Shown: piece by piece, positions 1 to 15,911 of the stretch
Layout of the letters: each line of letters opens with the position of its first letter
Numbering within the stretch: position 1 is the stretch's first letter
Virus genome (UHGV): UHGV-0341595
Origin: a virus
Length of the DNA: 17,209 nucleotides
Strand: one strand, 5' to 3'
The notes under the pieces: generated by a model
The model's input: the letters and a program-made list of their open reading frames with translations, nothing else
What the model was told of the DNA's origin: nothing
Databases searched by the model: none
Position numbers and translations under genes: made by a program

Positions 1-2157
1 ACCAACAGCCCCGCCAATGGCGCTACCGATACTCCCGACAATCCCCACCATTGCCTGCTTAAGCAGAATTTCTGTCATCATGGACAGCACGGAACGGGTG
101 AAGCTGCGCCAGTTCTGCTCACTGCCGGTCAGCATCGCCGCCATATTCTGCGCAATACCATCAAAGGTCTGCGTGGCTGCACTTTTAACCTGCGACATAC
201 TGTCCGTGGCGCTCTCTTCCCACTCACTCCAGCCGGACCTGAGGCCTGCCATCCAGCTCCCGCGAAGCTGGTCTTCAGCCGCCCAGGTCTTTTTCTGCTC
301 TGACATGACGTTATTCAGCGCCAGCGAATTATCGCCATACTGTTCCTTCAGGCGCTGTTCTGTGGCTTCCCGCGCTGCCTGCCGGTCAGTAAGCCCCCGG
401 TTTTTCGCCTCAATGGCTGCCCGTTTTGCCCGTTGTTGCTGTGCGAACTTATCCGCCTGCTGCGCCAGCGCGTTCAGGCGCTCCTGATACGTAACCTTGT
501 CGCCAAGTGCAGCCAGCTGGCGTTTGTACTCCAGCGTCTCATCTTTATGCGCCAGCAGGGATTTCTCCTGTGCGGACAGCTGGCGACGTTGCGCCGCCTC
601 CTCCAGTACCGCGAACTGACTCTCCGCCTTCCACAAATCCCGGCGCTGCTGGCTGATTTTCTCATTTGCTCCGGCATGCTTCTCCAGCGTCCGGAGTTCA
701 GCCTGAAGCGTCAGCAGGGCAGCATGAGCACTGTCTTCCTGACGATCGCCCGCAGACACTTTCACGCCGGACTGTTTCGGCTTTTTCAGCGTCGCTTCAT
801 AATCCTTTTTCGCCGCCGCCATCAGCGTGTTGTAATCTGCCTGCAGGATTTTCCCGTCTTTCAGTGCCTTGTTCAGTTCTTCCTGACGGGCGGTATATTT
901 CTCCAGCGGCGTCTGCAGGCGTTCGTAAGCCTTCTGCGCCTCTTCGGTATATTTCAGCCGTGATGCCTCAGACTCGGCCCAGTCCTTTGCTGCCATCTCT
1001 CTGGCCTTTTCAAGATCGGCCTGCAACGTGGCGGCTGAAAGCCCAAGTTGCGCATTCGCTCTGTCCTCCCATGCTCCCCGGAGATTGGCAAGAAATGCTG
1101 AGGTTTTACCGCGCCGGTGGCTTCGGCTCTGATACCACTGCCATTTTTTGTCCGCCTCATCAAAAGCCTTTTCTGCTTTCTCCAGCATTCCCTGGGCAGT
1201 GTCCGGGCGACCAATATCCAGCACCGAATCCCACATGGATTTGAATGCCCGTGCTGTCCTGTCTGCCCAGGTCTCCAGCGTGCCCATGTTCTCTTTCAGG
1301 CGGCGGGTCTGGTCATCAAACCCTTTCGTTGCGGCCTCGTTCGCCGCCTGCAATGCCCCGGCTTCATCTCCGGAACGCTGCAACTGAGCAACATACGCAA
1401 TCTGCTCCGCCGTCACGTTATGGAACTGACGTGCCATCGCTGTCAGTCCCGACGTCGGGTCTGTGGTCAGCTTCCCGAAGGCTTCAGCGACCTTGTCCAC
1501 CTCCACGCCGGATGCAGAGGAGAAACGCGCCACACTCTGGCTGATCGCCTCAAACTGCTCACCACCACGCACACCGGCATTCACCAGCGCCGTCAGTGAC
1601 TCGCTGGTCTGGTTAAACGTCAGCCCTGCCGCCTGCCCGGCTCTGGACAGGGCCAGAATACGATCTGCCGTCAGTCCCGCCTGATTGCCGGAAAGGACCA
1701 GCGTTTTGTTGAAATCGGACAGGGTTGAGTTGCCCTGATACCAGGCATACGCCAGCGCACCGGTCGCCACCGCCAGCGAGGTGGCCCCCACCATCGGCAG
1801 GGTGATCGCACCGGCAAGCCCCCTGAACATGGGGATCATCCCGCCGAAGGAGTCCTTAACCTGACCACCCTGTTGCAGCAGGATCAGCCACGGACTTTGC
1901 CCGCCTGCAAGCTGCGTGGCCACGTCGGTGAACTGTGCAGGCAGCATACGCATGGCGGCTTTATACTGCCCGACGGAAATCCCCGCTTTCTGTGCAGCCA
2001 GCGCCTGTCGGCTCAGCGACTGTTCAACGACTGCCGCTGTTTTTTTCGCATCAGTTTCCGTACCGGAAAAATGACGCCTGACTCTGGCCATCTGCTCGTC
2101 AAATCTGGCCGCATCCAGACTTAAATCAACGACCAGATCGCCTACCGGTTCAGCCAT
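1..2157 (-). CDS. H: Tail tape measure protein (lambda gpH-like), partial: N-terminal ~719 codons, 3-prime end runs off the window start
   Basis: Minus-strand frame open from ATG at 2157..2155 to position 1. Translation starts MAEPVGDLVVDLSLDAARFDEQMARV and the window start encodes GIAQNMAAMLTGSEQNWRSFTRSVLSMMTEILLKQAMVGIVG, matching lambda H as I recall it. Follows G/T as in lambda. Absent from the ORF track because there is no stop inside the window. Confidence 0.9.
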   Translation of the reverse strand, partial: MAEPVGDLVVDLSLDAARFDEQMARVRRHFSGTETDAKKTAAVVEQSLSRQALAAQKAGISVGQYKAAMRMLPAQFTDVATQLAGGQSPWLILLQQGGQVKDSFGGMIPMFRGLAGAITLPMVGATSLAVATGALAYAWYQGNSTLSDFNKTLVLSGNQAGLTADRILALSRAGQAAGLTFNQTSESLTALVNAGVRGGEQFEAISQSVARFSSASGVEVDKVAEAFGKLTTDPTSGLTAMARQFHNVTAEQIAYVAQLQRSGDEAGALQAANEAATKGFDDQTRRLKENMGTLETWADRTARAFKSMWDSVLDIGRPDTAQGMLEKAEKAFDEADKKWQWYQSRSHRRGKTSAFLANLRGAWEDRANAQLGLSAATLQADLEKAREMAAKDWAESEASRLKYTEEAQKAYERLQTPLEKYTARQEELNKALKDGKILQADYNTLMAAAKKDYEATLKKPKQSGVKVSAGDRQEDSAHAALLTLQAELRTLEKHAGANEKISQQRRDLWKAESQFAVLEEAAQRRQLSAQEKSLLAHKDETLEYKRQLAALGDKVTYQERLNALAQQADKFAQQQRAKRAAIEAKNRGLTDRQAAREATEQRLKEQYGDNSLALNNVMSEQKKTWAAEDQLRGSWMAGLRSGWSEWEESATDSMSQVKSAATQTFDGIAQNMAAMLTGSEQNWRSFTRSVLSMMTEILLKQAMVGIVGSIGSAIGGAVG

Positions 2158-2988
2158 ACCGGACTCCTCCTGCGATCCCTTCTGATACTGTCATCAGCAT
2201 TACGTCATCCTCCGTCATGTCCGCCACATCCGGGGAAGCGGGGATAACTTCATTCCCGTCCGGGCCAAAGCGGACGCCTCCGGCAAGCCCTGCCGCTTTC
2301 TGCATCAGCACATCATCTTCAGGCTCTTCGTCAGCCTCGCGCCGGTTCAGCAGACTGAAATCCAGCGGATGCATATCCGGCTCGCTGAAAAACAGGCTGA
2401 GTACGGTGTACGTCAGCCCGGAAAAGTGCATATCCAGCAGAACATCATGAAAATAATGGGTACTGTAAAAGCGGTGCCAGTCGGCATACTCCGTGGATGA
2501 CATCCCGGCAAGCATGGCGCGCCAGTCGGGTCGCCCCATCTCACGCGCCAGTTTCAGGGCAAAACTCAGCTCACCGTCGAACACTTTCCCGCAGAAACAG
2601 GCTCTGCTGGCCCGGCGTCATCTGCCTGTTCAGGTGCATCATTCACAACAAACTCAGACATACCGGACAGACGCATTACCACATTTTCAGCCTGAGCAAT
2701 TGCCTCTGTGGGCCAGGTGGTAAGCACTTCCTGCTCAATTTGTTTAACGGCTTCATTCATGGACGGCATCTTTGTCTTCTGCGGATGGCTATGCCACAGG
2801 GACATCGCCACCAGAAAAGCACCGGTTCTGACGAGATCTTCCACGCTCACCTGTCGATTGAGACTGGATCCCGCCTGTTCTGCCTGTCGTTTCAGCAGGG
2901 CGAGATGCTCAATTCGCTGCAGGGCTGACAGTTCAGAAAGCGTGACGCTCACACCGTTATATTCAAATGATTCGGTTTTCAGGAACAT
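2150..2988 (-). CDS. T: Tail assembly chaperone G-T fusion made by programmed -1 ribosomal frameshift; the T portion (2150..2584) has no start of its own
   Basis: Minus-strand heptamer G GGA AAG (plus-strand 2584..2590, ctttccc) lies in the G frame 6 codons before the G stop. The -1 frame continues as VFDGELSFALKLAREMGRPDWRAMLAGMSSTEYADWHRFY... to a stop at 2150, 7 nt before the H start. Same architecture as lambda G/GT. Confidence 0.85.
2566..2988 (-). CDS. G: Tail assembly chaperone G (lambda gpG-like), 140 aa
   Basis: ORF track 2566..2988 (-), MFLKTESFEYNGVSVTLSELSALQRIEHLALLKRQAEQ...; same length and position (between V and T/H) as lambda G; ends 18 nt past the slippery heptamer. Confidence 0.9.
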   Translation of the reverse strand: MFLKTESFEYNGVSVTLSELSALQRIEHLALLKRQAEQAGSSLNRQVSVEDLVRTGAFLVAMSLWHSHPQKTKMPSMNEAVKQIEQEVLTTWPTEAIAQAENVVMRLSGMSEFVVNDAPEQADDAGPAEPVSAGKCSTVS

Positions 2989-3003
2989 CGCTGACTCTCC
3001 GGA

Positions 3004-3744
3004 TTAACTGTCGGTGACGGTGATTTCTGCAACCACAGCAAGTTCACCATTACCGGATACAACCGGAATGTTGACCTTGCCTGCAGCAACACCTTTCACG
3101 GTGATGGTCATACCACTGACCGACACGGTGGCTTTTGTTTTATCCGCAGACACCGCACGGAAGCTCTTGTCGGTTGCGCCTTCCGGCTGGAATGCCACGG
3201 TCAGCGTGGTGCTCTGCCCTTTCACCACCGAAGTGCTGGCAGGCGTCACGGTCATGCCGGTTGCCGCTGTTACCGTGCTGCGATCTTCTGCCATCGACGG
3301 ACGTCTCACGTTGGTGACTTTCACCGTGCGGGTGATCACTTCCTTCGCCGTCACCGCCTTACCGATACTGCTGACCCAGCCGCGGAACACATCGACCGTG
3401 CCGTTCGGGAAGCGGATTTTATAGGCACGGGTATCCCCTTCATTAAACCACGCCAGCAGCGCCTGCTGCCCCTGCTCTCCGGGCATCCACGCCAGCGTGA
3501 AGCTGGTATCTCCGGCAGATTTCTGCCCCTGCCCGGTCGCAGTCCAGTCCGCATCTTCATCATCGAGATAGCTGTCGTCATAGGACTCAGCGGTCAGTTC
3601 GCCGGGCGTCAGGTCTTTAACTTTAGCCAGACGCGACCAGTCAACGTCTGAAAGCGGGTTCGCATAAGGGTCACCGTTCCCCTTATAAACCCACAGTGTG
3701 GTCCCGGCCCCTTTCACCGGCATTACTGGATTTGGTACAGGCAT
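3004..3744 (-). CDS. V: Major tail tube protein V (lambda gpV-like) with C-terminal Ig-like domain
   Basis: ORF track 3004..3774. I place the start at the internal ATG 3744..3742 ([22 protein letters not shown]...), which has a GAGGA RBS and lies 8 nt after the U stop; gives 246 aa. C-terminus is T/S/V-rich, typical of the V Ig-like domain. Confidence 0.9.
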
Positions 3745-3751
3745 ATCGTCC

Positions 3752-4147
3752 TCACATTTCATAGGTAATGACATAAGTCAGATCGGCTGAACTCCACAGG
3801 CCCGCATCATCGTCGCGCCGGTAGTCATAGCCACTGGCCACCATACTGGTGATCAAATCTGACAGTGCCGGGACATCGCTCATCACCGGATAAATCCGGG
3901 ACTCCATCCACGAATCCAGCTCTGAATCCGGCACCTGAGCAGGCAGGAAAACTTCAATATGCAGCTCCGCCTGCCAGGTATCACTGTCCAGCTCTTCGCC
4001 CGTGTATTCAGCGCCGGTGAGATAAACGGCAATTGCCGGAAAATCCGCCTCATCAAAAACAGCGGGGCGACCATCAAAAAGCGTCGCCCCGGTGTCATGC
4101 TTCTCCAGTGCATCCAGTACGGCTGCACGGAGTTCAGTATGTTTCAT
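3752..4147 (-). CDS. U: Tail terminator protein U (lambda gpU-like), 131 aa
   Basis: [72 protein letters not shown]...; ATGA start/stop overlap with Z; lambda order Z-U-V. Confidence 0.92.
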
Positions 4148-4722
4148 CGCTTTATTACCATTCTCAGTTGATGCTGCAGCGCATAGCCCAGCTCTTTCGG
4201 AAGACGTTCACGCCGTATCCGTTCAATATTCTGTTTAAACGCCGTGGTAAGCGGCACCGCCATCGGGATTTTCACCACATCAATGGGGTAACGGTTTTTC
4301 CCGGCCACACGCTGCATGACATGCCACCGGCCATTTTTCAGTTGCTGAATAAACGCGCCGGGAATACGACGGTTTCCCACCACAAGCACGCTGCCGCCAC
4401 CTTTCAGGGATGAACGCTGCCCCTTTTTACGACGTCTGCGGCGGGAAAGGACAACCCGCGCGTTACCCAGCTTGATTACGGGCAAATCCCCCCGGTTAAC
4501 CCTGATTCTGGCCTGCGGATTTTTGACCGTGGCCCTTTTCAGCCTGGCCCTTTCCTTTACCAGTTTCCGGCGTACCTTTGTCTCACGGGCAACCTGTGAC
4601 GCAGACTGCGATATCGCGGATGACGCAACGCGGTTAATGGCCATTGCGGCGGCACCAGGCACCGCCGTTTTGCTGATACGGCTGAGGTTTTCAACGGCCT
4701 GCTCAAGACCTTTTATGGCCAT
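4144..4722 (-). CDS. Z: Tail completion protein Z (lambda gpZ-like), 192 aa
   Basis: ORF track 4144..4722; length and position between FII and U as in lambda; basic RRRRRKKGQR stretch. Confidence 0.88.
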   Translation of the reverse strand: MAIKGLEQAVENLSRISKTAVPGAAAMAINRVASSAISQSASQVARETKVRRKLVKERARLKRATVKNPQARIRVNRGDLPVIKLGNARVVLSRRRRRKKGQRSSLKGGGSVLVVGNRRIPGAFIQQLKNGRWHVMQRVAGKNRYPIDVVKIPMAVPLTTAFKQNIERIRRERLPKELGYALQHQLRMVIKR

Positions 4723-4733
4723 ACATCCCCCTT

Positions 4734-5087
4734 TCAGCGGCGACGGTTAACGGCAGGCGGCACGCCACGCCCAAGCCAGAGATGACAGCTTCCGCCATCA
4801 TCCGGCGAAATCCGGTCCACCCAGAAGTTTTCCTCGCCGATGGTCAGTGTGTCTCCACGCCGCAGCTGCCGCACATCATCAGTCCGGACAAACAGGGACG
4901 GGCTGGAGCCTTCAACGCGCACCCCCTGTCCGGCATAGCTGATATTTTCAGGGTCATCAAAAACACCACGTATCACAGCACCGGACAGCTCACCGGATGT
5001 CATGGTGGCTGACGTTCCCATGTACCCGCGTATCGTTTCATCGGCGCGGGCAATGGCAGCATCGAACAGGTTATCGGAATCAGCCAC
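4734..5087 (-). CDS. FII: Head-tail joining protein FII (lambda gpFII-like), 117 aa
   Basis: MADSDNLFDAAIARADETIRGYMGTSATMTSGELSGAVIRGVFDDPENISYAGQGVRVEGSSPSLFVRTDDVRQLRRGDTLTIGEENFWVDRISPDDGGSCHLWLGRG...; same length and position as lambda FII. Confidence 0.9.
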   Translation of the reverse strand: MADSDNLFDAAIARADETIRGYMGTSATMTSGELSGAVIRGVFDDPENISYAGQGVRVEGSSPSLFVRTDDVRQLRRGDTLTIGEENFWVDRISPDDGGSCHLWLGRGVPPAVNRRR

Positions 5088-5098
5088 AGCGCCTCCCG

Positions 5099-5494
5099 TT
5101 ATTGCATTCTGGCCAGGCCATGTTCTGTCATTTCGGCTGCCACACCGGCAGAGACACGAAACGCCGTTCCCGGCAGCACAAATGCCACAGGCTCATCCCG
5201 CGTGGCGTGAAGTGCATCAGTATGCAGCGTCACCAGTGCCACGACCGTGACCAGAGCAGCCGTATCAATCACGGTATCCGGCTGCGCTGATACCACCTCA
5301 TTTTCATGTCCGGTCAGCGCATTTTCCGGGCTGACAGATGTGTCCTGACCGGCAGCGTCATCCGTGTCATCAAGCTCCTCTTCCAGCTCTGCCACACGGA
5401 GCACCAGTTCTTCTTTCGTCCCCGTCAGGCTGACATCACGGTTCAGTTGCTCACCCAGCACCTGAAGACGGGCAATCAGTTCATCTTTCGTCAT
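5099..5494 (-). CDS. FI: DNA packaging/head assembly protein FI (lambda gpFI-like)
   Basis: ORF track 5099..5533. I place the start at ATG 5494..5492 (MTKDELIARLQVLGEQLNRDVSLTGTKEEL...), preceded by GGAGGA; this gives ~131 aa, matching lambda FI. The upstream 13 codons of the track ORF are probably not translated. Confidence 0.85.
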   Translation of the reverse strand: MTKDELIARLQVLGEQLNRDVSLTGTKEELVLRVAELEEELDDTDDAAGQDTSVSPENALTGHENEVVSAQPDTVIDTAALVTVVALVTLHTDALHATRDEPVAFVLPGTAFRVSAGVAAEMTEHGLARMQ

Positions 5495-5535
5495 GGACTC
5501 CTCCACAGAGAGAAAATGGCCCCGAAGGGCCATGA

Positions 5536-6324
5536 TTACGCCAGTTGTACGGACACGAACGCATCAGGATCAGCCAGCAGCATCAGCGGTGCTGACTGAA
5601 TCATGGTGAACTCACGCGCCGGATCGCCGGTGGTCACCCAGTTTTTCGGGTAGCGGGCAGAGGCGTTAATACCTTCGCGCTGTGCGTCCGCATCCTGAAT
5701 GCAGCCATAGGTGCGCAGACCGCGTGCCTGAGTGTTCCCCAGCACCATCGTGTTGTCCGGCAGGAAGTTCTTTTTGACGTCGTTTTCCACGTACTGTCCG
5801 GAATACACGACGATCGCCGTATCGCCATACATCCCCTTATAGGACACCGCTTCGCCCAGGTCTTTTACCGCTGTCTCCAGCTCGGAATTAGAGCCGCGAC
5901 GGGTATCCAGCTTCTCCTTGACGGCTTTGAAGGAACGGAACAGCGCCCAGCCTTTCGGATCAAACACGATGATATTCACCACGCCGCTGGCGTTCAGCGC
6001 GTAGGCTTCGATATCGTCGGTCGGGTCATACGTGGACTTGTCACGCTTGCTCCACTCCGTGCCGCCGGACTGCGTGATGTTGTTCGCCGCACTGCGGCCC
6101 ATATCCACCTCAACCGGATCGAAGGCTTCACCGGTCATGGTGTATTTGCCCTTGAGCACGGCAGAAACTGCCTGCATCTCTTCGACCTGAGCAATGGCCA
6201 GCTCTTCGTCACGCATGTTCTGCAGGATGATGCGACGGCGGCGGTAAGCCGGGTCCGCCAGATTCTGCGGATCTTCATCCGGCAGGCGACGCAGGGTCAT
6301 CTGCGGATTCACCTCATGCTTCGG
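5536..6324 (-). pseudogene. E: Major capsid protein E (lambda gpE-like), 5-prime truncated: only the C-terminal ~260 codons remain
   Basis: Translation ...PKHEVNPQMTLRRLPDEDPQNLADPAYRRRRIILQNMRDEELAIAQVEEM ... PLMLLADPDAFVSVQLA corresponds to lambda E from about residue 82 to the end. The frame hits TAG at 6327..6325 exactly where composition switches to AT-rich. No E N-terminus upstream; the track ORF starts at an internal GTG. Confidence 0.85.
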
Positions 6325-6352
6325 CTACATGAGTCAATCCCGAAAGAACTAT

Positions 6353-6382
6353 TTGATTTCACTTAGCTTTGTGGTTTATATA
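6353..6382 (+). promoter_or_regulatory. Candidate sigma70-type promoter for the DUF262-HEPN cassette
   Basis: TTGATT (6353..6358), 18-nt spacer, TATATA (6377..6382), about 100 nt upstream of the DUF262 ATG in an AT-rich non-coding stretch. Pattern match only. Confidence 0.3.
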
Positions 6383-6480
6383 TCTACGCAACTCCTATCA
6401 CTGCAATACTTTCTGCAATACAGATATGTGTAGTGAGGACTTGTCTAAAAACCATATTCACGAAGAAAAAGGATGACACG

Positions 6481-7644
6481 ATGCAACCAGAAGATTATGA
6501 AGAAAAGCAATACGAGGATGAGCCAGAATCCTATCCAATTGATGAGTTTCAACTTACTACTACGCCCAATGATTTTAATATAATCACAATTATAAGTTTT
6601 ATTAAATCAAAAGTTTTTAAAATCCCTAACTTTCAAAGGCATTATGTTTGGGATATCAAACGAGCATCAAAACTCATTGAATCTCTTTTAATAGGCCTTC
6701 CTATACCTCAAATATTTTTATATGAACAAGATAAAAATGAATTTTTAGTGATAGATGGTCAGCAGAGATTAATGACCCTTTATTACTTTGTAAATGGTGT
6801 ATTCCCTAGAAAAGAGAAACGTTCTGAACTGAGAAAAATCTTTGAAGATAATGGAAACATTCCAGAAAACATTCTTCACAATGATGAATACTTCACAAAG
6901 TTCAACCTAAAACTTGATGGTCTATCAGACACCCAAAAAAACAAGTTTAATGGGAAAAACTATGAAACATTAAACGAATTTCAAACCACTTTAAATCTGG
7001 CAACCATACGAAATATGGTAATCAAACCGGTTGCACAAGATTCGGAAGATGGTGCAATGTTTGAAATATTTAACCGCCTAAATAGTGGGGGAATGAACCT
7101 TTCTCCTCAAGAAATTCGTATGAGTTTATATCACTCAGACTTTCTTTCAAATCTTGTTTCATTGAATGAAAACAAGACATGGAGAAAAATTCTTTCAAAA
7201 AATGTTGTTGACATGCGATTGAGTGATATTGAAGCGATATTGCGCACATTTGCTATGTCCCTTTTTACATCTCAATACAAAAGCTCAGTTAGCGGTTTTT
7301 TGAACAATTTCTCAAATTATGCAAAAAACTACGACACTAAAGACATAATTTTATTTAGTAATATATGGAATGAATTTATGGATAGTGTTGATGGAATTGA
7401 TGAAATCAATTTCAGAACTGGTGGGAATCGTATGAGTATAACTTTATTTGAGTCAATTTTTTATGCTGCAACTTATGACTCATTTAAAGATAAAGATCTA
7501 AAAATAAGACAAGTGACGGTGAATTATATCGATAAGCTTAAAAATGATCCTGAATTTCTGACATTTAGTACTGATAAAACAACAAGAAGAGAGCATGTAA
7601 TTGGACGTCTAGAACGTGCAAGAACAATTTTGGAGGGAATGTAA
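6481..7644 (+). CDS. DUF262 (ParB/Srx-like N-terminal nuclease/NTPase) domain protein, ~387 aa
   Basis: ORF track 6433..7644; likely start ATG 6481 (MQPEDYEE...) with AAGGA 7 nt upstream. Contains the hallmark DUF262 motif FLVIDGQQRLMTLYYF and a second conserved block FEIFNRLNSGGMNLSPQEIR. Low-GC codon usage unlike the flanking phage genes. Confidence 0.8.
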   Translation: MQPEDYEEKQYEDEPESYPIDEFQLTTTPNDFNIITIISFIKSKVFKIPNFQRHYVWDIKRASKLIESLLIGLPIPQIFLYEQDKNEFLVIDGQQRLMTLYYFVNGVFPRKEKRSELRKIFEDNGNIPENILHNDEYFTKFNLKLDGLSDTQKNKFNGKNYETLNEFQTTLNLATIRNMVIKPVAQDSEDGAMFEIFNRLNSGGMNLSPQEIRMSLYHSDFLSNLVSLNENKTWRKILSKNVVDMRLSDIEAILRTFAMSLFTSQYKSSVSGFLNNFSNYAKNYDTKDIILFSNIWNEFMDSVDGIDEINFRTGGNRMSITLFESIFYAATYDSFKDKDLKIRQVTVNYIDKLKNDPEFLTFSTDKTTRREHVIGRLERARTILEGM

Positions 7645-7648
7645 AATA

Positions 7649-8197
7649 ATGGAGGATATGGGATATACTTCTATTGAAAGTATGTTTAATAACTATAAGT
7701 GTTATTATGATTTTCTTCTAACTCATAATGAGATTAGTTTTGCTAATGATTACAAATCACAATTTTCAAAAGTAATGCTATTAGCATGTGCTAGCTATTT
7801 TGAAACTTTAGTTGTAACTAAGATACATTGTATGCTTAACCCAAGCCAATGTAATCTTACACACGATTTTATCGATAATAAGGCCCTAACCAGGCAGTAT
7901 CATACACTCTTTGATTGGAAAAAAAGGAATGCAAACCAGTTTTTTTCCTTTTTTGGCCCAAAATTTAAAGAGTTTATGATTGAGAAGGTAAAATCAAGCA
8001 CAGAGTTGACCAAGTCTATCTCTGATTTTATGGAAATCGGAGAGCTAAGAAATAAATTAGCACATAATAATTATGCTACTTTTGTATTAGAAAGCACAGC
8101 TGAAGAGATTTATAATAAATTTTTAAATGCACATTCATTTGTCTCTCAACTAGATACGTTCAGTACACAGTTTAGAGAGCAAATTGGTGAACAGTAA
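7649..8197 (+). CDS. Small HEPN-motif protein (putative RNase-type effector), ~182 aa, coupled to the DUF262 gene
   Basis: ORF track 7616..8197; likely start ATG 7649 (MEDMGYTSIE...), 5 nt after the DUF262 stop, with GGAGGG upstream. C-terminal ELRNKLAHNNY fits the HEPN R-x4-6-H motif. I recall HEPN-like nucleases of this type being annotated adjacent to DUF262 proteins. Family assignment is by motif only. Confidence 0.6.
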   Translation: MEDMGYTSIESMFNNYKCYYDFLLTHNEISFANDYKSQFSKVMLLACASYFETLVVTKIHCMLNPSQCNLTHDFIDNKALTRQYHTLFDWKKRNANQFFSFFGPKFKEFMIEKVKSSTELTKSISDFMEIGELRNKLAHNNYATFVLESTAEEIYNKFLNAHSFVSQLDTFSTQFREQIGEQ

Positions 8198-8235
8198 TAG
8201 TTTATCTCCAGCAAAAAAAATAACTTGCAAATAAT

Positions 8236-8262
8236 AAAAGCGGTCGCGTGACCGCTTTTTTC
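8236..8262. terminator. Bidirectional rho-independent terminator
   Basis: aaaaGCGGTCgcgtGACCGCtttttt: 6-bp GC-rich stem, 4-nt loop, A-run before and T-run after, 39 nt downstream of the HEPN stop. Confidence 0.75.
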
Positions 8263-8409
8263 TATTTATCATTGCTATTTTCCTTTATTATTTCAGCAAT
8301 TGACATAACTAAGGCGTCTGCTTTATTTCTAGTCCTATCAAACATATCTCTAATTACATCAATATAATAATGTTCCTCAAAAATATTTACGTCTGACAAA
8401 AGTATTGCA

Positions 8410-8456
8410 CAACTCTTGCCCAAAATGTCAGCCAGTTGATCTTTGTTGACTTCCAT
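8410..8456 (-). pseudogene. nu1: 5-prime fragment of terminase small subunit gene nu1 (first ~15 codons only)
   Basis: The track ORF 8262..8456 starts MEVNKDQLADILGKS, matching the lambda Nu1 N-terminus MEVNKKQLADIFGAS as I recall it, then diverges into AT-rich sequence with no further Nu1 similarity. The 64-aa ORF is most likely a chimeric remnant. Confidence 0.7.
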
Positions 8457-8676
8457 TGTTCATTCCACGGACAAAAACAGAGAAAGGAAACGACAGAGGC
8501 CAAAATGCCCGTTTTCAGCGCCTGTCATTTCCTTTCTTTTCAGGGGGTATTTTAAATAAAAACATAAAGTTACGGCGAAGAAGAACGGAAATGCCTTAAA
8601 CCGGAAAATTTCCATAAATAGAGAAAAACTGCGCGCCTGACGCCCCGTAGCCTGTCAGATCGCCGGAAAGGACCCG
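8457..8676 (-). other. Lambda-type cos site (cosQ-cosN-cosB), oriented with the minus strand
   Basis: The minus strand reads ...GGGTCCTTTCCGGCGATCTGACAGGCTACGGGGCGTCAGGCGCGCAGTTTTTCTCTATTTATGGAAATTTTCCGGTTTAAGGCATTTCCGTTCTTCTTCG...GAAAAGAAAGGAAATGACAGG...GGCCTCTGTCGTTTCCTTTCTCTGTTTTTGTCCGTGGAATGAACAATGGAAGTCAAC, near-collinear with the lambda left end/cos region as I recall it, ending at the nu1 start. cosN core is around 8630..8650. Confidence 0.75.
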
Positions 8677-9096: not shown

Positions 9097-9438
9097 TTAC
9101 ACACGAGCCAGCGGCTGAACAGAAATACCTGAGCCAACAAACGCTGCAATCTTTACTGACAGTTCTTTTACAGACTCAGGCCAGTTCAGAGCATCAACAT
9201 TTAAGACACCTGTCTTATAGACCTGAGCCTGTGTTTTTTTCGCGGTGTCGATTTGTACAGCGGAAACATAAACCGCTTTACCTACGCTCGAACCATCCCA
9301 TACCACCAGTGCACCTGTTGCATCTTCCTGCATCAGTGGCGTAAATGCAGGAATTACCCCTTTATTAGCTGAAAATATCCCCAGCGTAGTCACCAGTGCT
9401 TCAGTGCCAGCCATGAGTTCAGTGTAATGAGTAGCCAT
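9097..9438 (-). CDS. Head decoration protein, lambda gpD family (divergent), 113 aa
   Basis: TPLMQEDATGALVVWDGSSVGKAVYVSA...KTGVLNVDALNWPESV...KIAAFVGSGISVQP parallels lambda D (TPLMLDTSSRKLVAWDG...LWPEA...AFAGTAISIV) in size and motif order. GGGGGAG RBS overlaps the E-like stop. Confidence 0.7.
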   Translation of the reverse strand: MATHYTELMAGTEALVTTLGIFSANKGVIPAFTPLMQEDATGALVVWDGSSVGKAVYVSAVQIDTAKKTQAQVYKTGVLNVDALNWPESVKELSVKIAAFVGSGISVQPLARV

Positions 9439-9447: not shown

Positions 9448-10488
9448 TTAGCCAATGCGAACGGTAACAAAACGATTGATGCGGGCCGGTATTGGCTGTG
9501 GTGCTGAATGTGTCTGCACATATTCAATAGCCGGATCACCAGGCACAATATAGTTTTTCGGTGCAAGTTCGGCTTTAGTCAGCCCCATTCGGATTAGCTC
9601 CGGATCCTGAATACCGCCATAGGCGACAATCCCCTGAAGAGCCGTATTGCCAAGCACCATCAAATCAGGATCAAGGAAATGTTTTTCAGTTCCGTCCTCG
9701 TCGGTATAACGCCCGCTGTATACAACAATCGCAACATCGCCCATATACCCTTTAAAACTCACCGAATCACCAAGGTCTTTAAGAGCCGTTTCCAGTTCGG
9801 AATTAGAACCACGACGGGTATCCAGAGCCTCTTTTATCGCTCTGAATGAACGGTATTTCTTCCATACATTACCGCCCATAATGATGATATTAGTGACGCC
9901 CTCACTAAATTCTGCGTAGCTCTCAATATCATCATTTGGATCAAAAGTTTCTTTATCCTTACCTGACCACTCAGCACCGCCAGACTGAGTGATGATATTT
10001 TGTGGTTTAATATTCCAGTCCAGCTCATAACGTTCAATACCATCGCCCTCAATGATATTTTTCCCCGTTGTGATTGCCTGAACGGCAAGCCATTCAATAC
10101 GTGCACGAATAGCTTTAGCCTGATTTACAATCGCCTGTTTAACTTTAATATTACGCGCTCCAAAAGCATTGTATTGCTCAGGTGATACACCAGCAGGGCG
10201 CACAGCTAACTTATTTGGATCAATGCTGCTTTTCGGCTTCATATAGCCTGGACGAATTGTTTTTGATTCGTACCCTTCGTCACGTGAAACTTTACTACCC
10301 GCCATAGGAGAACAAAACGCTGCAATTGGGATATTTGGATCGTCGATTGTATCAAGAATAATATCGCGCGATTCAAACATTACCGAGCGAGTAAAAAACA
10401 AACTGGTAAACAACGCATTTAGTTGTTTTTGTACATCTACAGCATTAACCACCTGTACAAGCTGGGTAGGCGAATATAAATCAACCAT
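9448..10488 (-). CDS. Major capsid protein, lambda gpE family (divergent, apparently intact), ~346 aa
   Basis: ORF track 9448..10662 (404 aa). Similarity to lambda E starts near MRMVDLYSPTQLVQ; AAGAGG RBS favours ATG 10488 (alternative 10494). Shares long identical stretches with the truncated E in this window (DTRRGSNSELETA, AIVVYSG, ITQSGG) but is otherwise divergent. The first ~57 track codons are probably untranslated leader. Confidence 0.8.
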   Translation of the reverse strand: MVDLYSPTQLVQVVNAVDVQKQLNALFTSLFFTRSVMFESRDIILDTIDDPNIPIAAFCSPMAGSKVSRDEGYESKTIRPGYMKPKSSIDPNKLAVRPAGVSPEQYNAFGARNIKVKQAIVNQAKAIRARIEWLAVQAITTGKNIIEGDGIERYELDWNIKPQNIITQSGGAEWSGKDKETFDPNDDIESYAEFSEGVTNIIIMGGNVWKKYRSFRAIKEALDTRRGSNSELETALKDLGDSVSFKGYMGDVAIVVYSGRYTDEDGTEKHFLDPDLMVLGNTALQGIVAYGGIQDPELIRMGLTKAELAPKNYIVPGDPAIEYVQTHSAPQPIPARINRFVTVRIG

Positions 10489-10705: not shown

Positions 10706-11155
10706 TTAAAACGGAATATCATCTCCCCATTGTTCATTATCTCCCACTGGTGGATGGCTTCCTTGCTGATCTGCCTGTTGTTTTGCTCTGTTCAGTGCGT
10801 CAGTAGCCTGACCCTGTTGACCTTTTTTGCCGCCCGGTCGCACCGTTCGCGCACTGATTACGCTGTCTGCGATAACCTGCCAGCCCTGCCGCGTTTCACC
10901 GTTCTGTCCAGTCCACTGGCTCACCTGCATATTACCCGCCACGCTCAGGAGTTCGCCTTTGTGATGCTTTGCCAGCGCGTCGGCTTGTCTGCCAAACGCC
11001 AGGACAGATAACCACATCGTCGCCTGACCGTCATCCGACTGACTGCAGGGCAGTGATACCGCCATACGCGCCAGCGTCATGGGGGTGCCCTTGCTGGTCT
11101 GTTTTGTCTGCGGGTCGTCCACCAACCGCCCGTAAACTGATATTTGCGCCGTCAT
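10706..11155 (-). CDS. ssb: Single-stranded DNA-binding protein (SSB-like), 149 aa
   Basis: N-terminal OB-fold pattern VYGRLVDDPQ...TLARMAV...WLSVLAFGRQADALAKHHKGELLSVAGNMQVSQWTGQNGETRQGWQV, a Gly/Gln-rich linker and the acidic C-terminal tip GDDIPF typical of bacterial/phage SSB. Confidence 0.8.
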   Translation of the reverse strand: MTAQISVYGRLVDDPQTKQTSKGTPMTLARMAVSLPCSQSDDGQATMWLSVLAFGRQADALAKHHKGELLSVAGNMQVSQWTGQNGETRQGWQVIADSVISARTVRPGGKKGQQGQATDALNRAKQQADQQGSHPPVGDNEQWGDDIPF

Positions 11156-11397
11156 GCTGCCTGCTCTCCGGACTTAATATTGATTGTTGTCACTTCCTCC
11201 GCTTCAGCAATCTCCCGTTCGGTCAGAGTGGCAAAGTTTGCAGCCGCCGTTGTCATGAATGCGCTAATCAGTTCGGGATGTGCTTTCGCGTATCCTTCCC
11301 CGGCGTTGCGGTCGATGATTTTTATCGACACCCTTAACCAGTGTTCCGTCAAATCAAGGGCGTGCGATTGTGATTTTTTTGTGTGCTTCGCTGTCAT
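11152..11397 (-). CDS. Hypothetical protein, 81 aa, translationally coupled to ssb
   Basis: ORF track; ATGA overlap with the ssb start; directly downstream of the iteron cluster. No recognisable motif. Confidence 0.45.
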   Translation of the reverse strand: MTAKHTKKSQSHALDLTEHWLRVSIKIIDRNAGEGYAKAHPELISAFMTTAAANFATLTEREIAEAEEVTTINIKSGEQAA

Positions 11398-11443
11398 AGG
11401 CTTTATCTCACAGCAGTAAATTAAAATTTTTGCGTTTTAACCC

Positions 11444-11680
11444 TTCACCTGTTCACCTTTTGATATTTTCTCTTTTAATTCATAATGTTAATGGGTGAAC
11501 AGTTTCACAAAAACTATTCACCAACTGTTCACCACTGTTCACCACTGTTCACCCTTGAAGCTCAATAAACAATCAAAAAGGTGAACAGTGAATAGTTTGG
11601 TGAACAGTTCATAAATAACTGTTCACCCTATAATATACTGATATAAAAGATATTTATGACAGGGTGAACAGTGGTGAACA
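11444..11680. repeat. Iteron cluster (putative replication origin): at least 10 perfect copies of TGTTCACC/GGTGAACA plus degenerate copies
   Basis: TGTTCACC at 11450, 11526, 11536, 11546, 11620; GGTGAACA at 11494, 11580, 11599, 11663, 11673; degenerate TATTCACC 11515 and GTGAATAG 11588. Lies just after the primase stop (11695). The octamer is the P4 type I iteron bound by P4 alpha in ori/crr, as I recall it. Confidence 0.8.
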
Positions 11681-11694
11681 GTTATTCCATAAGT

Positions 11695-13515
11695 TTAATT
11701 TTTGCTATCGTCATTAGTGACCGATACACATGATGGCATCCAGTCTTCTGATTCCTCCGTCAGTGTCACGTTTGAACGCAAACCGTGCTTCGTTTTCCGT
11801 TTCATATACTCCCTGCCATATTCCGCCATTGCCCCCGGCATATCTTTACCGAAGCGCGTCAGTGTTACAGGTTTACCAAACCCATGTGCCCTCATATAAG
11901 CCAGATAGGCATGATAGAGATACCTGCGTGGGCTGAATGGCACAATTTCAGCATTACCCACTAACAGGCCATCACACATTACCGATGCCATGAGATAGCC
12001 GCAGAAGTCCACCAGCGAATCCCCCTCTCGCTTTATCGCCAGTGCTTCTTCAGATTTCTGCTGCTCATATAACAGGCGTCTGGCTTCGTCCTGATCAGCA
12101 AACCGTGTAAGCAGATGGCGAATCACTACCGCCAGCTCACCTTCTATTTTTTCCGCCAGCATCGAATCGCGTTCGTTCTCCGGTACAACTTCCGAAAAAT
12201 TGAATATCACCCGACGACGTGAGATCCCCCCGCTGCGGTCACTGAATGACATGGCGTTATTGTTAACCGCCAGCACTACTGCCGGAATACGCGTTGAATA
12301 GGGGGCTTTGTGTTTCGGGTCAATTGCCACCTTGTCACCGCCTGTAATGGCCTTAATCCCTGCCCCATCACCAGCGTAGCGGGTCATATCCGGCATGATA
12401 ATCAGCGAAAAGCCAACCACTAACGCACGTTCCCTTGCATCTTCCAGCGCCTTCATGCTTGCTGATACTGTATTAGCCTTACCCGCCAGCATGGTGCAAA
12501 TCTCCGCCATCACACTTTTACCACTTCCCCCCGGCCCTGTTACCTCAATGAATAACTGCCAGTCGTACCGGTTCGCCAGCACCATGAATAATGCCGCCAG
12601 TACGCGATCTGCCTTGCGGTCATTCTCAGCCACCGAACGGCGCAACCACTTCCAGAAATTCGGCGCATGTGTTGCCAGCGTTTCCCCCTCTGCTGGTGGG
12701 CTGAAAGGTAATTCACTGGCAATTAACAACCAGTCGTTTTTGTTATGCTCCCGAAAATTACCAGTTCTGGTATCAAATACCCCGTTACTGAATCCAATCA
12801 GGTTACGGGCTGTATTCCCCATTACAGGCAAACTTAACTTCATGGTATCTACCGCCGATTTAATAGCGTTCTGCGAATAGCTGATCTCCGCATCAATGAA
12901 AATCTGCGCCATAGCACGCTGTAACTCTTTATCCTGAACCGGCTCCCATACAACGCCGTTGTAATGATGAACGGTGTCAGAGTCGGCATTGATTGCCAGT
13001 TCGCCGCCGTAATGTGCAAGGAGAACTTCACCGCGCTGGCTGGCCCCCATCTGATTCAACGCCAAAGATGAAGCACGCTCGTCATTTTTGCGCTCTGCCT
13101 TCTTCACTGGCAGTTCAATCACCAGACTTTCCCCATGCTCCGCTTCAGCTTTTAGGCCGACAAGGCGCGGAGTCCAGTCTTCAGGCTCTCGATCAACAAA
13201 GCTACGGTAACAACGTGCTTCCTTTACGCCTGCAATAGCAAGTAATGTCGCAACCTTCGTCAGACTTTTCTCTGCAATCTTTCCGGCACGATAAACACGC
13301 ACATAATGACGGCCTTCATCGATAATTTGCATATCATCCAGGTTTTCCAGTTGTTCCGTACCCAGAATGACTGGTGGTGTATCATCTGCTGCAATATGCT
13401 TACCTGCCCATTCATTCCATTCTTTTGCATGACTCCAGGCATCACTGCCAGCAAAAATGATGACTTCCGTCATTTTGTCGCGCGGTTGGTATTTTAAGTT
13501 CGGAGCACGTTTCAT
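11695..13515 (-). CDS. Replication initiator primase/helicase (P4 alpha-like; D5_N/SF3 NTPase type), 606 aa
   Basis: ORF track 11695..13515; strong GGAGG RBS 5 nt before the ATG; Walker A GPGGSGKS in the central region; size and position (after int-alpA, before iterons) typical of P4/PICI replication proteins. Confidence 0.8.
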   Translation of the reverse strand: MKRAPNLKYQPRDKMTEVIIFAGSDAWSHAKEWNEWAGKHIAADDTPPVILGTEQLENLDDMQIIDEGRHYVRVYRAGKIAEKSLTKVATLLAIAGVKEARCYRSFVDREPEDWTPRLVGLKAEAEHGESLVIELPVKKAERKNDERASSLALNQMGASQRGEVLLAHYGGELAINADSDTVHHYNGVVWEPVQDKELQRAMAQIFIDAEISYSQNAIKSAVDTMKLSLPVMGNTARNLIGFSNGVFDTRTGNFREHNKNDWLLIASELPFSPPAEGETLATHAPNFWKWLRRSVAENDRKADRVLAALFMVLANRYDWQLFIEVTGPGGSGKSVMAEICTMLAGKANTVSASMKALEDARERALVVGFSLIIMPDMTRYAGDGAGIKAITGGDKVAIDPKHKAPYSTRIPAVVLAVNNNAMSFSDRSGGISRRRVIFNFSEVVPENERDSMLAEKIEGELAVVIRHLLTRFADQDEARRLLYEQQKSEEALAIKREGDSLVDFCGYLMASVMCDGLLVGNAEIVPFSPRRYLYHAYLAYMRAHGFGKPVTLTRFGKDMPGAMAEYGREYMKRKTKHGLRSNVTLTEESEDWMPSCVSVTNDDSKN

Positions 13516-13799
13516 TTGTTACCTCCGGCAACTAACATTGCCCGAATTTTACGGATATAGCCTGCGGCACGCCTCTGATTATCTGTCTTGCAATTTTTTA
13601 CCAGAATGAAATCTCTTTCGAACTGCTGACGCGGCATAACACATTCAAAATCATAACCATCACGCAAATAAGAGACACGACGATCATCAACCGAAATAAT
13701 CTTTACCCGATAGCCATAGCTGTCTTTAAAAATATCCCCAAGGCTGATTTTTGAATGAGTTTGACCGCTGGCAATAAAGCCAGAAAATTTATTTTTCAT
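13512..13799 (-). CDS. Hypothetical protein, 95 aa, coupled to primase
   Basis: ORF track; stop overlaps the primase ATG (ATGA). No recognisable motif. Confidence 0.45.
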   Translation of the reverse strand: MKNKFSGFIASGQTHSKISLGDIFKDSYGYRVKIISVDDRRVSYLRDGYDFECVMPRQQFERDFILVKNCKTDNQRRAAGYIRKIRAMLVAGGNK

Positions 13800-13802
13800 T
13801 TT

Positions 13803-14027
13803 TTATTCTCCGGTATAGCTCTGGTCGTGTATTTTTATAGCTTCATCCAGCTCTTTGATGACAGGATCAAGTAACGTAATTAACGCTCCAGCTAAATTAG
13901 CATCCCGTTCATCGTGTTCCGCATTTGTTGTCCCATCAAGCCAGGTTGATAAGATTTCTCGCATATTTTTGCCACAAACGAGCGCGTTTTCAGCATGTGT
14001 CAGCACTTTAAAATAAAGATCATTCAT
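13803..14027 (-). CDS. Hypothetical protein, 74 aa
   Basis: ORF track; tightly packed in the same operon (3-nt gap to the next gene). No recognisable motif. Confidence 0.4.
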   Translation of the reverse strand: MNDLYFKVLTHAENALVCGKNMREILSTWLDGTTNAEHDERDANLAGALITLLDPVIKELDEAIKIHDQSYTGE

Positions 14028-14385
14028 GGCACACCTCCTGACGAATACGGGCAGCGAATATCATCACGTAGCCAGTTGGGGATTGCAGCCGGGCTTCCTG
14101 TTCGCTGGCGGCCTCGATGTGTATTACGCGTGGTTGTGCGGTGCTCAGGGCGATAAAACGCCAGATGAAATTGTTTTCGCATTTCTGAATAAACAGCGTG
14201 TTTTCTTCACGCCCTTTCCAGAAAGCCGCAGTATAGCCCATCTCCTTAACCATCTTGCGGGCATCAACCAGCGTGTCAGCGGCTACATGTACCGTAGTTG
14301 CTCCATCTGCCATGCGGTCGTGGTGTAGTGCCAGAAAGGTGTATATAAATTTAGGGTGAGTTTGGGTATGCTGTGTTCCAGCCAT
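14020..14385 (-). CDS. Hypothetical protein, 121 aa, first gene of the replication-side operon
   Basis: ORF track; 8-nt overlap with the downstream ORF; preceded by a palindromic regulatory region. No recognisable motif. Confidence 0.45.
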   Translation of the reverse strand: MAGTQHTQTHPKFIYTFLALHHDRMADGATTVHVAADTLVDARKMVKEMGYTAAFWKGREENTLFIQKCENNFIWRFIALSTAQPRVIHIEAASEQEARLQSPTGYVMIFAARIRQEVCHE

Positions 14386-14415
14386 AATCGTTACCTCATT
14401 TAACGGGTTGGTTAG

Positions 14416-14448
14416 ACGCCTCGATGGTGTTCCCGCACGTCGAGGCGT
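14416..14448. promoter_or_regulatory. 9-bp inverted repeat hairpin in the leader of the minus-strand operon
   Basis: ACGCCTCGA (14416..14424) and TCGAGGCGT (14440..14448) with a 15-nt loop, followed on plus by TGCATTTTCC. Could be an attenuator/terminator or a protein-binding site. Confidence 0.4.
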
Positions 14449-14468
14449 TGCATTTTCCTAAACACGTA

Positions 14469-14695: not shown

Positions 14696-14708
14696 CAGAT
14701 AATATTTC

Positions 14709-14741: not shown

Positions 14742-14770
14742 CTATGCAGATTTTTAGTTCAAAGAATTTA

Positions 14771-15910: not shown

Positions 15911-15911
15911 G

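What the first reader, a model, noticed from the sequence alone, without database searches (positions are those of the whole stretch)
6300..8460. Head-gene module missing: the cassette sits exactly between nu1 codon ~15 and E codon ~83
Going leftward on the minus strand the order is cos, the first ~15 codons of nu1, AT-rich cassette, then E from about residue 82, FI, FII, Z, U, V, G, T, H. That is collinear with lambda except that everything from the rest of nu1 through A, W, B, C, Nu3, D and the E N-terminus is absent and replaced by the DUF262-HEPN cassette. Both junctions fall inside codons: nu1 similarity stops near 8411, and the E frame hits TAG at 6327..6325. The late region therefore cannot make terminase, portal or a functional capsid, yet keeps a full head-completion/tail set. 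Either a defective prophage had its head genes replaced by a defence cassette, or a satellite end (cos plus cargo) is fused to a prophage remnant.
Basis: partly seen in the sequence, partly recalled or inferred. Interest (0 to 1): 0.65.

Follow-up and report, generated by a model that had tools for sequence, protein, structure and literature searches.

The report
Satellite inserted in prophage capsid gene
The head genes have probably not been deleted: an 11-kb phage satellite of an already published type (a "helper-embedded PICI") has inserted into the lambda-like prophage's capsid gene E. In every related genome examined this pushes the head genes beyond the end of this contig, and the DUF262-HEPN cassette is the satellite's own cargo.

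Summary
The sequence observation is correct. On the minus strand the order is cos, about 15 codons of nu1, an AT-rich DUF262-HEPN cassette, then E from codon 80, FI, FII and the tail genes.

The headline reading, that the head module is missing or was replaced, is not supported. Everything from 6327 to at least 17069 is one integrase-bearing satellite. Its parts are int, alpA, a TIR gene, primase, SSB, its own E-like and D-like genes, a second AlpA-like gene, cos and cargo.

The left junction is the satellite's 10-bp attachment core (6317-6326) inside E codons 79-82. In complete E. coli genomes with the same element, the E 5' fragment, D, C, B, W, A and nu1 follow directly after int.

The window is a whole 17,209-bp metagenome contig. 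It stops 140 nt into an IS66-family element that interrupts int, so those genes are simply out of view.

The nu1 stub belongs to the satellite's own cos region. Sister satellites carry a full nu1 there, and the stub occurs only with this cassette.

This is the "11capE" helper-embedded PICI (site E:Phage_cap_E:80) described by Tommasini, Mageeney and Williams in 2023. The type strain carries the same cassette. It is already known, and interest is low.

The parts
1..5533 (-). Helper prophage late genes H (partial), T, G, V, U, Z, FII, FI
   Evidence: 96% identical and collinear with lambda from position 7202 onward. Window 1-8234 aligns to annotated E04 (L002) 12001-20235.
5536..6326 (-). 3' fragment of helper major capsid gene E (codons 80-341)
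   Evidence: Lambda alignment and translation. RefSeq annotates the same fragment in relatives as 'major capsid protein, missing N-terminus'.
6317..6326 (.). 10-bp attachment core TGCTTCGGCT on the cargo side of the satellite, inside E codons 79-82
   Evidence: The same 10 bp occurs at the int-side junction of E04 (L002 35255). NRG 857C has TGCTTGGGTT at both of its junctions. The 10-bp identity block was reported in PMC10111431.
6327..6429 (.). Satellite attP arm, with the doubled motif CTGCAATACTTTCTGCAATACA at 6401-6422
   Evidence: The motif and its distance from the core are conserved in satellites with three unrelated cargoes, while the sequence around it differs. It matches the TGTATTGC doubled motif, about 81 bp from the att centre, described in PMC10111431.
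6481..7644 (+). Cargo gene 1: ParB-like DUF262 / GmrSD_N protein (387 aa)
   Evidence: Pfam PF03235, E 1.7e-35. PADLOC NsnA 6e-59 and PD-T4-2_A 1.9e-38.
7649..8197 (+). Cargo gene 2: RiboL-PSP HEPN protein (182 aa)
   Evidence: Pfam PF18735, E 1.6e-13. PADLOC PD-T4-2_B 2e-4.
8236..8259 (.). Bidirectional terminator-like hairpin between the convergent HEPN gene and the 64-aa ORF
   Evidence: Found on both strands by the terminator scan.
8262..8456 (-). 64-aa ORF: nu1 start codon plus about 15 nu1 codons, fused to cassette-side sequence (the nu1 stub)
   Evidence: No Pfam, PADLOC or PDB match. Sister satellites have a full-length nu1 at this position.
8419..8676 (-). The satellite's own cos: cosQ side 8646-8676, 12-nt cohesive end 8634-8645 (GGGCGTCAGGCG), helper-type cosB 8457-8615
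   Evidence: Alignments to lambda and to the resident helpers' cos. A 258-bp block shared by satellite and helper at 90% identity is noted in PMC10111431.
8702..9085 (-). AlpA-family helix-turn-helix protein (127 aa) next to cos
   Evidence: Pfam PF05930, E 7.6e-9. PDB 8c3t, E 2e-9. Found next to this cos in 51 of the 54 satellite-type IMG/VR loci; in the other three the locus ends before the gene.
9097..9438 (-). The satellite's own head-decoration (D-like) gene
   Evidence: Pfam HDPD. 38% identical to lambda D.
9448..10488 (-). The satellite's own major capsid (E-like) gene
   Evidence: Pfam Phage_cap_E, E 1e-41. 42% identical to lambda E.
10706..13515 (-). Replication zone: SSB (10706-11155), an 81-aa ORF, and D5-type primase-helicase (11695-13515)
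   Evidence: Pfam matches. RefSeq annotation of relatives.
13512..15646 (-). DUF4222 gene, a 74-aa ORF, Icd-like gene (14020-14385), and a variable-zone TIR-domain gene (14771-15646)
   Evidence: The TIR gene matches PADLOC PDC-S35 at 7e-67. It is absent from NRG 857C and 13E0767 and present in E04 and WP8.
15683..17069 (-). Integration zone: alpA (15683-15910) and the tyrosine integrase, whose first 26 codons are cut off
   Evidence: Pfam Phage_AlpA. Pfam Phage_integrase and Arm-DNA-bind_3. 98.6% nucleotide identity to the NRG 857C 11capE integrase region.
17070..17209 (.). End of an IS66-family element (starts GTAAGCGTGC...) inserted in int; the contig ends here
   Evidence: Homology to the uninterrupted int stops at 17069. 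A DDE_Tnp_IS66_C fragment is called at the contig end.

Best explanation
The interval 6300-8460 is the cargo end of an approximately 11-kb helper-embedded phage satellite. It belongs to the HE-PICI '11capE' family, integration site E:Phage_cap_E:80. [quoted passage not shown]

Shown here:
- The left junction (6317-6326) is the 10-bp attachment core.
- The right 'junction' (about 8410) is not a prophage breakpoint. It lies inside the satellite, where the satellite's own cos region (cosQ, cosN, helper-type cosB and a nu1 stub) meets a variable cargo slot.
- That slot runs from cos to the integrase arm motif. In this lineage it holds a DUF262 + HEPN defence-type gene pair.
- In all four related complete genomes examined, the head genes nu1 to D and the E 5' end lie on the far side of the satellite, beyond int. 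That is outside this contig.

Taken from the literature, for the near-identical element in NRG 857C:
- On induction the prophage-satellite composite excises and replicates.
- The satellite then excises late and precisely, which restores E.

Inferred:
- Helper late transcription reads into the co-oriented satellite genes.
- Helper Nu1/A terminase packages the satellite through its helper-type cosB. No Rpp or terS is needed in this lineage.
- The nu1 stub is a scar left when the cassette displaced a formerly full-length satellite nu1.
- In this particular contig, the IS66-family insertion 78 nt into int has probably disabled or uncoupled excision. If so, E stays split.
For: 1. Context in four complete genomes. 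The order is always tail genes, FI, E 3' fragment, cargo, cos, AlpA-like gene, D-like gene, E-like gene, SSB, primase, alpA, int, E 5' fragment, D, C, B, W, A, nu1.
2. The same 10-bp core sits at both junctions, and the two E fragments rebuild an intact E.
3. 3,101 of 5,426 complete E. coli genomes have an uninterrupted E across the reconstructed attB. 173 have the int-side junction. 30-31 have this cargo-side junction.
4. The window's int and backbone are 97.7-99.6% identical to NRG 857C and E04.
5. The integrase arm motif sits at a conserved distance from the core in satellites with three unrelated cargoes.
6. The published description of exactly this element, including measured excision, is PMC10111431.
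7. The cargo slot is variable: an Abi gene plus the satellite's own terS in WP8, DUF3892 plus hypothetical genes in 13E0767, and DUF262-HEPN here.
8. Sister satellites carry a full nu1 after the same cos. The nu1 cut at lambda nt 228-238 occurs only together with DUF262-HEPN.
9. The cassette is 99.7-100% identical in 31 genomes and is always found in this context.
Against: - The window does not contain the int-side junction or the E 5' fragment. It ends in an IS66-family element, and no complete genome in the collection shares that exact int::IS junction. What lies beyond in this strain is inferred from relatives. An IS-mediated deletion there cannot be excluded.
- No particles were ever recovered for the type element (PMC10111431). 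Packaging and transfer are therefore unproven.
- The satellite's 12-nt cohesive end differs at 5 positions from that of the resident helpers. Cutting by the helper terminase is an assumption.
- Defence activity of the cassette is inferred from domains only.
Confidence: 0.93

Rival explanations
1. A defective lambdoid prophage lost nu1 (from codon 15) through the E N-terminus by deletion, and the DUF262-HEPN cassette was inserted in their place.
For: Within the window, the cassette does sit between a nu1 stub and an E 3' fragment. The far side of the IS66-family element is not visible.
Against: - The cos and nu1 stub are contiguous with satellite genes, not with prophage lysis genes.
- The helper's own cos and nu1 exist as a second, separate copy in relatives.
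- The head genes are present beyond int in all four relatives examined.
- The left junction is a conserved integrase core with its arm motif.
Confidence: 0.02
2. A satellite end (cos plus cargo) became fused to a prophage remnant by illegitimate or homologous recombination or by deletion. On this reading it is a dead chimera, not an integrated mobile element.
For: Satellite and helper share 258 bp of cos at 90% identity that could recombine. In this contig int is interrupted by an IS element. Several relatives carry IS insertions or frameshifted helper genes.
Against: - Both ends of the satellite carry the same 10-bp core, and E is rebuilt exactly.
- The junction is identical in 173 genomes with varied helper prophages.
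- Precise excision was measured in NRG 857C (PMC10111431).
Confidence: 0.03
3. The contig is a metagenome assembly chimera that joins a satellite to a prophage tail region through shared repeats.
For: The window is a k141 metagenome contig, and both of its ends lie in repeated sequence: the tape-measure gene and an IS element.
Against: The same E-fragment/cassette/cos junctions occur at 99-100% identity in 30-31 finished E. coli chromosomes.
Confidence: 0.01

Closest known systems
Helper-embedded PICI Eco567.11capE (E. coli NRG 857C), site group E:Phage_cap_E:80 (Tommasini, Mageeney and Williams, NAR Genom Bioinform 2023, PMC10111431)
   Same: - Same integrase (98.6% nucleotide identity).
- Same insertion point in E, at a 10-bp core.
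- Same orientation relative to the helper late operon.
- Same arm motif.
- Same gene order: int, alpA, variable zone, primase, SSB, capsid gene, decoration gene, AlpA-like gene, cos, cargo.
- Same DUF262-HEPN cassette (99.8% identity).

   Different: - The core allele here is TGCTTCGGCT rather than TGCTTGGGTT, matching a lambda-type helper E.
- A TIR-domain gene sits in the variable zone in place of NRG 857C's genes.
- int is interrupted by an IS66-family element.
EcCICFT073-type cos PICIs of E. coli, which use Rpp (Fillol-Salom et al., Mol Cell 2019, PMC6739421)
   Same: Similar size, int-alpA-primase backbone, a cos site, and a lambdoid helper. Neither EcCICFT073 nor this lineage has a terS gene.
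   Different: - EcCICFT073 sits in the chromosome, has a cosB unlike the phage's, and needs Rpp to redirect TerS.
- This element sits inside the helper, has a helper-type cosB (149 of 159 positions identical to lambda), and has no detectable Rpp homologue.
Capsid-forming PICIs (cf-PICIs)
   Same: Both are satellites that encode capsid-family proteins.
   Different: cf-PICIs encode all the proteins needed to build their own capsids and package their DNA into them, and take only tails from the helper (abstract listed). This element has only an E-like and a D-like gene.
PD-T4-2 anti-phage system (Vassallo et al. 2022, as summarised in PMC10952713)
   Same: A two-gene unit made of a DUF262 protein and a PF18735 HEPN protein.
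   Different: The best HMM for the DUF262 protein is Menshen NsnA, not PD-T4-2_A. The match to PD-T4-2_B is weak (2e-4). Activity has not been tested.

Membership tests
HE-PICI, E:Phage_cap_E:80 group | Tyrosine integrase of the 11capE clade at one end of the element, followed by alpA | tested here: met
   Window 15692-17069 is 98.6% identical to the NRG 857C int/alpA region. Pfam Phage_integrase, Arm-DNA-bind_3 and Phage_AlpA all match. The N-terminal 26 codons are cut off by an IS element.
HE-PICI, E:Phage_cap_E:80 group | Integration inside a helper prophage late gene (E, around codon 80), with a short identity block at both junctions and no replacement copy of the target | tested here: met
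   The cargo-side junction and core lie at 6317-6326 in the window. The int-side junction lies outside the contig, but it is present with the same 10-bp core in E04 and in 173 complete genomes.
HE-PICI, E:Phage_cap_E:80 group | int, alpA and primase co-oriented with the interrupted late gene | tested here: met
   All of these lie on the minus strand, as do E, FI and the tail genes.
HE-PICI, E:Phage_cap_E:80 group | Doubled TGTATTGC motif at a fixed distance from the att centre on both attP arms | tested here: met
   The cargo-side copy is at 6401-6422, about 80 bp from the core centre. The int-side copy is seen in NRG 857C, WP8 and 13E0767 but falls outside the window.
HE-PICI, E:Phage_cap_E:80 group | Inducible precise excision that restores the late gene | not testable with these tools
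   Shown experimentally for NRG 857C in PMC10111431. In this contig, the IS insertion in int makes excision doubtful.
Rpp-dependent cos PICI (EcCICFT073 type) | An Rpp protein and a cosB unlike the helper's | tested here: not met
   No PDB hit to Rpp for any small satellite ORF. cosB is 149/159 identical to lambda.
Capsid-forming PICI | A complete set of capsid-assembly and DNA-packaging genes of its own (capsid, portal, protease, terminase, connectors) | tested here: not met
   Only Phage_cap_E and HDPD homologues are present.
PD-T4-2 defence system | Adjacent DUF262 protein and RiboL-PSP HEPN protein | tested here: met
   PF03235 at 1.7e-35 and PF18735 at 1.6e-13. PD-T4-2_A at 1.9e-38 and PD-T4-2_B at 2e-4. 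The domain definition is from PMC10952713. Protection against phage was not tested.
Menshen (NsnABC) | NsnA together with the NsnB ABC ATPase and the NsnC effector | tested here: not met
   There is an NsnA-like hit at 6e-59, but no ATPase gene. The second gene is a 182-aa HEPN protein. The three-gene definition is from PMC12065111.
GmrSD type IV restriction enzyme | DUF262 joined to a DUF1524 nuclease domain | tested here: not met
   Only the GmrSD_N domain is found; there is no DUF1524 hit.

The most novel reading that the evidence does not exclude
The nu1 stub may mark a switch in packaging strategy that has not been described.

Satellites sharing this cos exist with a full lambda-like nu1, with a diverged terS of their own plus their own cosB, or with no terS at all. 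In the window's lineage, the defence cassette displaced the satellite's terS. That would leave a hybrid cos, with the satellite's cohesive-end allele joined to a helper-type cosB, which depends entirely on the helper's Nu1.

A more speculative addition: the perfect 11-nt inverted copies of the integrase arm motif at both cassette borders (6402-6412 and 8399-8409) could record an integrase-associated or inversion-type route by which cargo enters the slot between cos and attP.
Probability: 0.12. Interest if true: 0.5.

Novelty: already known. Interest (0 to 1): 0.2.

Why it matters
It corrects a tempting misreading. A prophage whose capsid gene seems truncated next to a defence cassette is not necessarily decayed. 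It may be hosting a satellite that splits the gene on purpose and restores it on excision.

For annotation, such loci should be called as nested elements: a helper prophage containing an HE-PICI that carries defence cargo. They should not be called defective prophages.

Biologically, the locus shows a satellite delivering two defence-type modules, DUF262-HEPN and a TIR protein, while sitting inside its helper. All of this has been published for a near-identical element, so the value here is confirmation and a few family-level details.

Tried and rejected
- An Rfam scan of the whole window found nothing above gathering scores, including the C4/isrK immunity RNAs reported in some PICIs.
- The promoter scan of 6250-8750 was no better than shuffled sequence. 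Only the bidirectional hairpin at 8236-8259 was informative.
- I searched complete genomes for the window's exact int::IS66 junction, to see what lies beyond. None has it. E04 has an independent ISCro1 insertion 32 nt away.
There are no direct repeats at the borders. The left border is the att core and arm. The only notable feature is an 11-nt inverted repeat, and it is absent from other cargo variants.
- I tested whether the satellite's cohesive-end allele is unique to satellites. It is not: 3 of 57 IMG/VR loci with it are lambda-like Nu1+A head regions.
- I looked for an Rpp homologue by PDB sequence search of the small ORFs. None was found.
- One search contained an irrelevant fourth sequence that I added by mistake. 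Only its three real rows were used, and the alignment was repeated properly.
- I did not use the large protein-database searches or structure prediction, because the identification did not depend on them.
Full report
**Observation**

Against phage lambda:
- Window 6326->2699 (minus strand) equals lambda 6370-10000 at 96% identity. This is E from codon 79/80, followed by FI, FII, Z, U, V and G.
- Window 8676->8419 (minus strand) equals lambda 48472..228 at 90% identity. This covers cosQ, cosN, cosB and the first 38 nt of nu1.

Protein-level similarity to Nu1 runs to codon 15, which puts the breakpoint at about 8410. The E frame ends in TAG at 6327..6325. The interval between the junctions is 29-33% G+C. 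It encodes a GmrSD_N/DUF262 protein and a RiboL-PSP HEPN protein on the plus strand.

Everything to the right of cos is also foreign to the prophage. From 8702 to 17069, all on the minus strand, lie:
- an AlpA-family gene;
- a D-like and an E-like gene, 38% and 42% identical to lambda D and E;
- SSB and a D5-type primase-helicase;
- DUF4222 and Icd-like genes;
- a TIR-domain gene;
- alpA and a tyrosine integrase.

That is the layout of a Gram-negative phage-inducible chromosomal island.

**Context in complete genomes**

The junction region 5400-9200 occurs almost unchanged in 30 complete E. coli chromosomes. I examined NRG 857C, E04, WP8-S17-ESBL-12 and 13E0767. In all four the order is:
1. 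tail genes, FI;
2. E 'missing N-terminus';
3. cargo;
4. cos, AlpA-like gene, D-like gene, E-like gene, SSB, primase, alpA, int;
5. E 'missing C-terminus';
6. D, C (S49 peptidase), portal, W, terminase large subunit, nu1;
7. lysis genes.

So the head module is displaced by about 11 kb, not deleted.

**The attachment site**

The two E fragments share a 10-bp core. It is TGCTTCGGCT in the window and in E04, and TGCTTGGGTT in NRG 857C. Joined at the core, the fragments rebuild an intact 341-aa E.

In the collection of 5,426 complete E. coli genomes:
- 3,101 have an uninterrupted E across the reconstructed target site;
- 173 carry the int-side junction.

**Why the head genes are not visible here**

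The window is an entire metagenome contig, ENA ERZ27317282 k141_113104, 17,209 bp. Homology to the uninterrupted integrase stops at 17069, 78 nt after the int start codon. There an IS66-family terminal repeat begins (GTAAGCGTGC...) and the contig ends.

No complete genome shares this exact junction, and E04 has a separate ISCro1 insertion 32 nt away. What follows in this strain is therefore inferred from relatives. The insertion probably disables the satellite's excision or uncouples it from helper transcription.

**Identity of the element**

This is the element published as Eco567.11capE, the founding 'helper-embedded PICI' (PMC10111431). The type strain is NRG 857C, which is my locus L001. 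That paper reports:
- the 10-bp identity block;
- the site name E:Phage_cap_E:80, with 201 instances;
- a doubled TGTATTGC motif on both attP arms;
- four ordered gene zones;
- a 258-bp cos block shared with the helper at 90% identity;
- by qPCR and deep sequencing, excision and replication of the whole composite, followed by late, precise excision of the satellite.

No particles were recovered.

The window matches on every feature that can be tested. The integrase region is 98.6% identical. The satellite is co-oriented with the helper late genes. The arm motif lies at 6401-6422, about 80 bp from the core centre. NRG 857C even carries the same DUF262-HEPN cassette at 99.8% identity.

**The right-hand 'junction'**

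The nu1 stub is part of the satellite, not a prophage breakpoint. The resident helper keeps its own cos and nu1 as a second copy.

The stretch between cos and the arm motif is a variable cargo slot:
- an Abi gene plus a full terS in WP8; this terS is 35% identical to Nu1 and comes with its own cosB;
- DUF3892 plus hypothetical genes in 13E0767;
- DUF262-HEPN here.

Among 57 IMG/VR loci that share the satellite's cosN 18-mer:
- eight satellites have a full nu1, 72-73% identical to lambda Nu1 and with the same N-terminus;
- about ten have the diverged terS;
- about 21 keep cosB only to about lambda nt 176;
- the cut at lambda nt 228-238 occurs only together with DUF262-HEPN.

The cassette is 99.7-100% identical in 31 complete genomes and is never seen elsewhere in E. 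coli. The simplest reading is a single event in which the cassette replaced the rest of a satellite-borne nu1. That fits the capture-then-loss model for PICI late zones in PMC10111431.

**The cassette**

It pairs a DUF262 (ParB-like NTPase) protein with a PF18735 HEPN protein. This is the domain pair of the PD-T4-2 defence system.
- It is not Menshen: there is no NsnB ATPase or NsnC.
- It is not GmrSD: there is no DUF1524 domain.

It is transcribed against the satellite's late genes and ends at a bidirectional hairpin. Its defence function is inferred, not tested.

**How it most likely works**

Shown here or in the cited paper: site-specific insertion into E; composite excision and replication; late satellite excision that restores E.

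Inferred:
- Helper late transcription runs from nu1 through the E 5' fragment into int, alpA and the rest of the satellite.
- Helper Nu1 binds the satellite's helper-type cosB, which is 149/159 identical to lambda with recognisable R3, R2 and R1. Neither Rpp nor terS is then needed. No Rpp homologue was found.
- About four 11-kb copies would fill a lambda-sized head, unless the E-like and D-like proteins change head size.

**Verdict**

The phenomenon is already known, so interest is low.

**Residual points**

These may deserve a note:
- the family's cohesive-end allele;
- the range of terS and cosB states across the family;
- the inverted arm-motif copies at the cassette borders.

Noticed in passing
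window 8634-8645 (minus strand); also L001, L002, L005, L006 and L008-L064: The satellite's 12-nt cohesive end is GGGCGTCAGGCG. Lambda and the resident helpers have GGGCGGCGACCT. That is 5 of 12 positions changed, while the flanking cosQ and cosB are more than 90% identical. The allele is shared by all satellites of this family that I examined. However, 3 of 57 IMG/VR loci with the 18-mer are lambda-like Nu1+A head regions, so it is not exclusive to satellites. No phage in the curated collection matched the region at better than 90.7%.
   Followed up: partly
window 6402-6412 and 8399-8409: A perfect 11-nt inverted repeat (TGCAATACTTT / AAAGTATTGCA) brackets the DUF262-HEPN cassette. The left copy is part of the integrase arm motif. 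The right copy starts 1-2 nt after the nu1 homology ends. It is absent from the cos-side border of two other cargo variants. It could be chance, or a trace of how the cassette entered.
   Followed up: partly
window 17070-17209: The end of an IS66-family element is inserted 78 nt into the satellite integrase gene, and the contig ends there. Strain E04 has an independent ISCro1 insertion 32 nt away in the same gene, plus IS200C, ISKpn26 and IS3 copies between the HEPN gene and cos. These satellites appear to accumulate IS elements.
   Followed up: partly
window 14771-15646 (minus strand): A 291-aa TIR-domain protein lies in the variable zone between alpA and the Icd-like gene. It matches Pfam CAP12-PCTIR_TIR and PADLOC candidate system PDC-S35 at 7e-67. 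It is present in E04 and WP8 and replaced by other genes in NRG 857C and 13E0767. This is a second defence-type cargo on the same satellite.
   Followed up: partly
window 8702-9085 (minus strand): A second AlpA-family helix-turn-helix protein (127 aa) lies immediately upstream of cos. It is found next to this cos in 51 of the 54 satellite-type IMG/VR loci; in the other three the locus ends before the gene. It sits where EcCICFT073-type islands encode Rpp but shows no similarity to Rpp. Its role (late regulator or packaging specificity) is unknown.
   Followed up: partly
L005 8422-8964 (WP8-S17-ESBL-12) and about ten IMG/VR loci: Some members of this HE-PICI family encode their own small terminase subunit. 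One type is 35% identical to lambda Nu1 and comes with a distinct cosB. Another type is 72-73% identical. The type element was described as lacking terS.
   Followed up: partly
window 8262-8456 (minus strand): A 64-aa ORF uses the nu1 ribosome-binding site, start codon and first 15 codons, then continues into cassette-side sequence. RefSeq annotates it as a hypothetical protein. It has no family or structure match, and it is unclear whether it is expressed or functional.
   Followed up: partly
whole window: The window is identical to a complete metagenome contig (ENA ERZ27317282 k141_113104, 17,209 bp). Both contig ends fall in repeated sequence: the tape-measure gene H on the left and an IS66-family element on the right.
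   Followed up: yes
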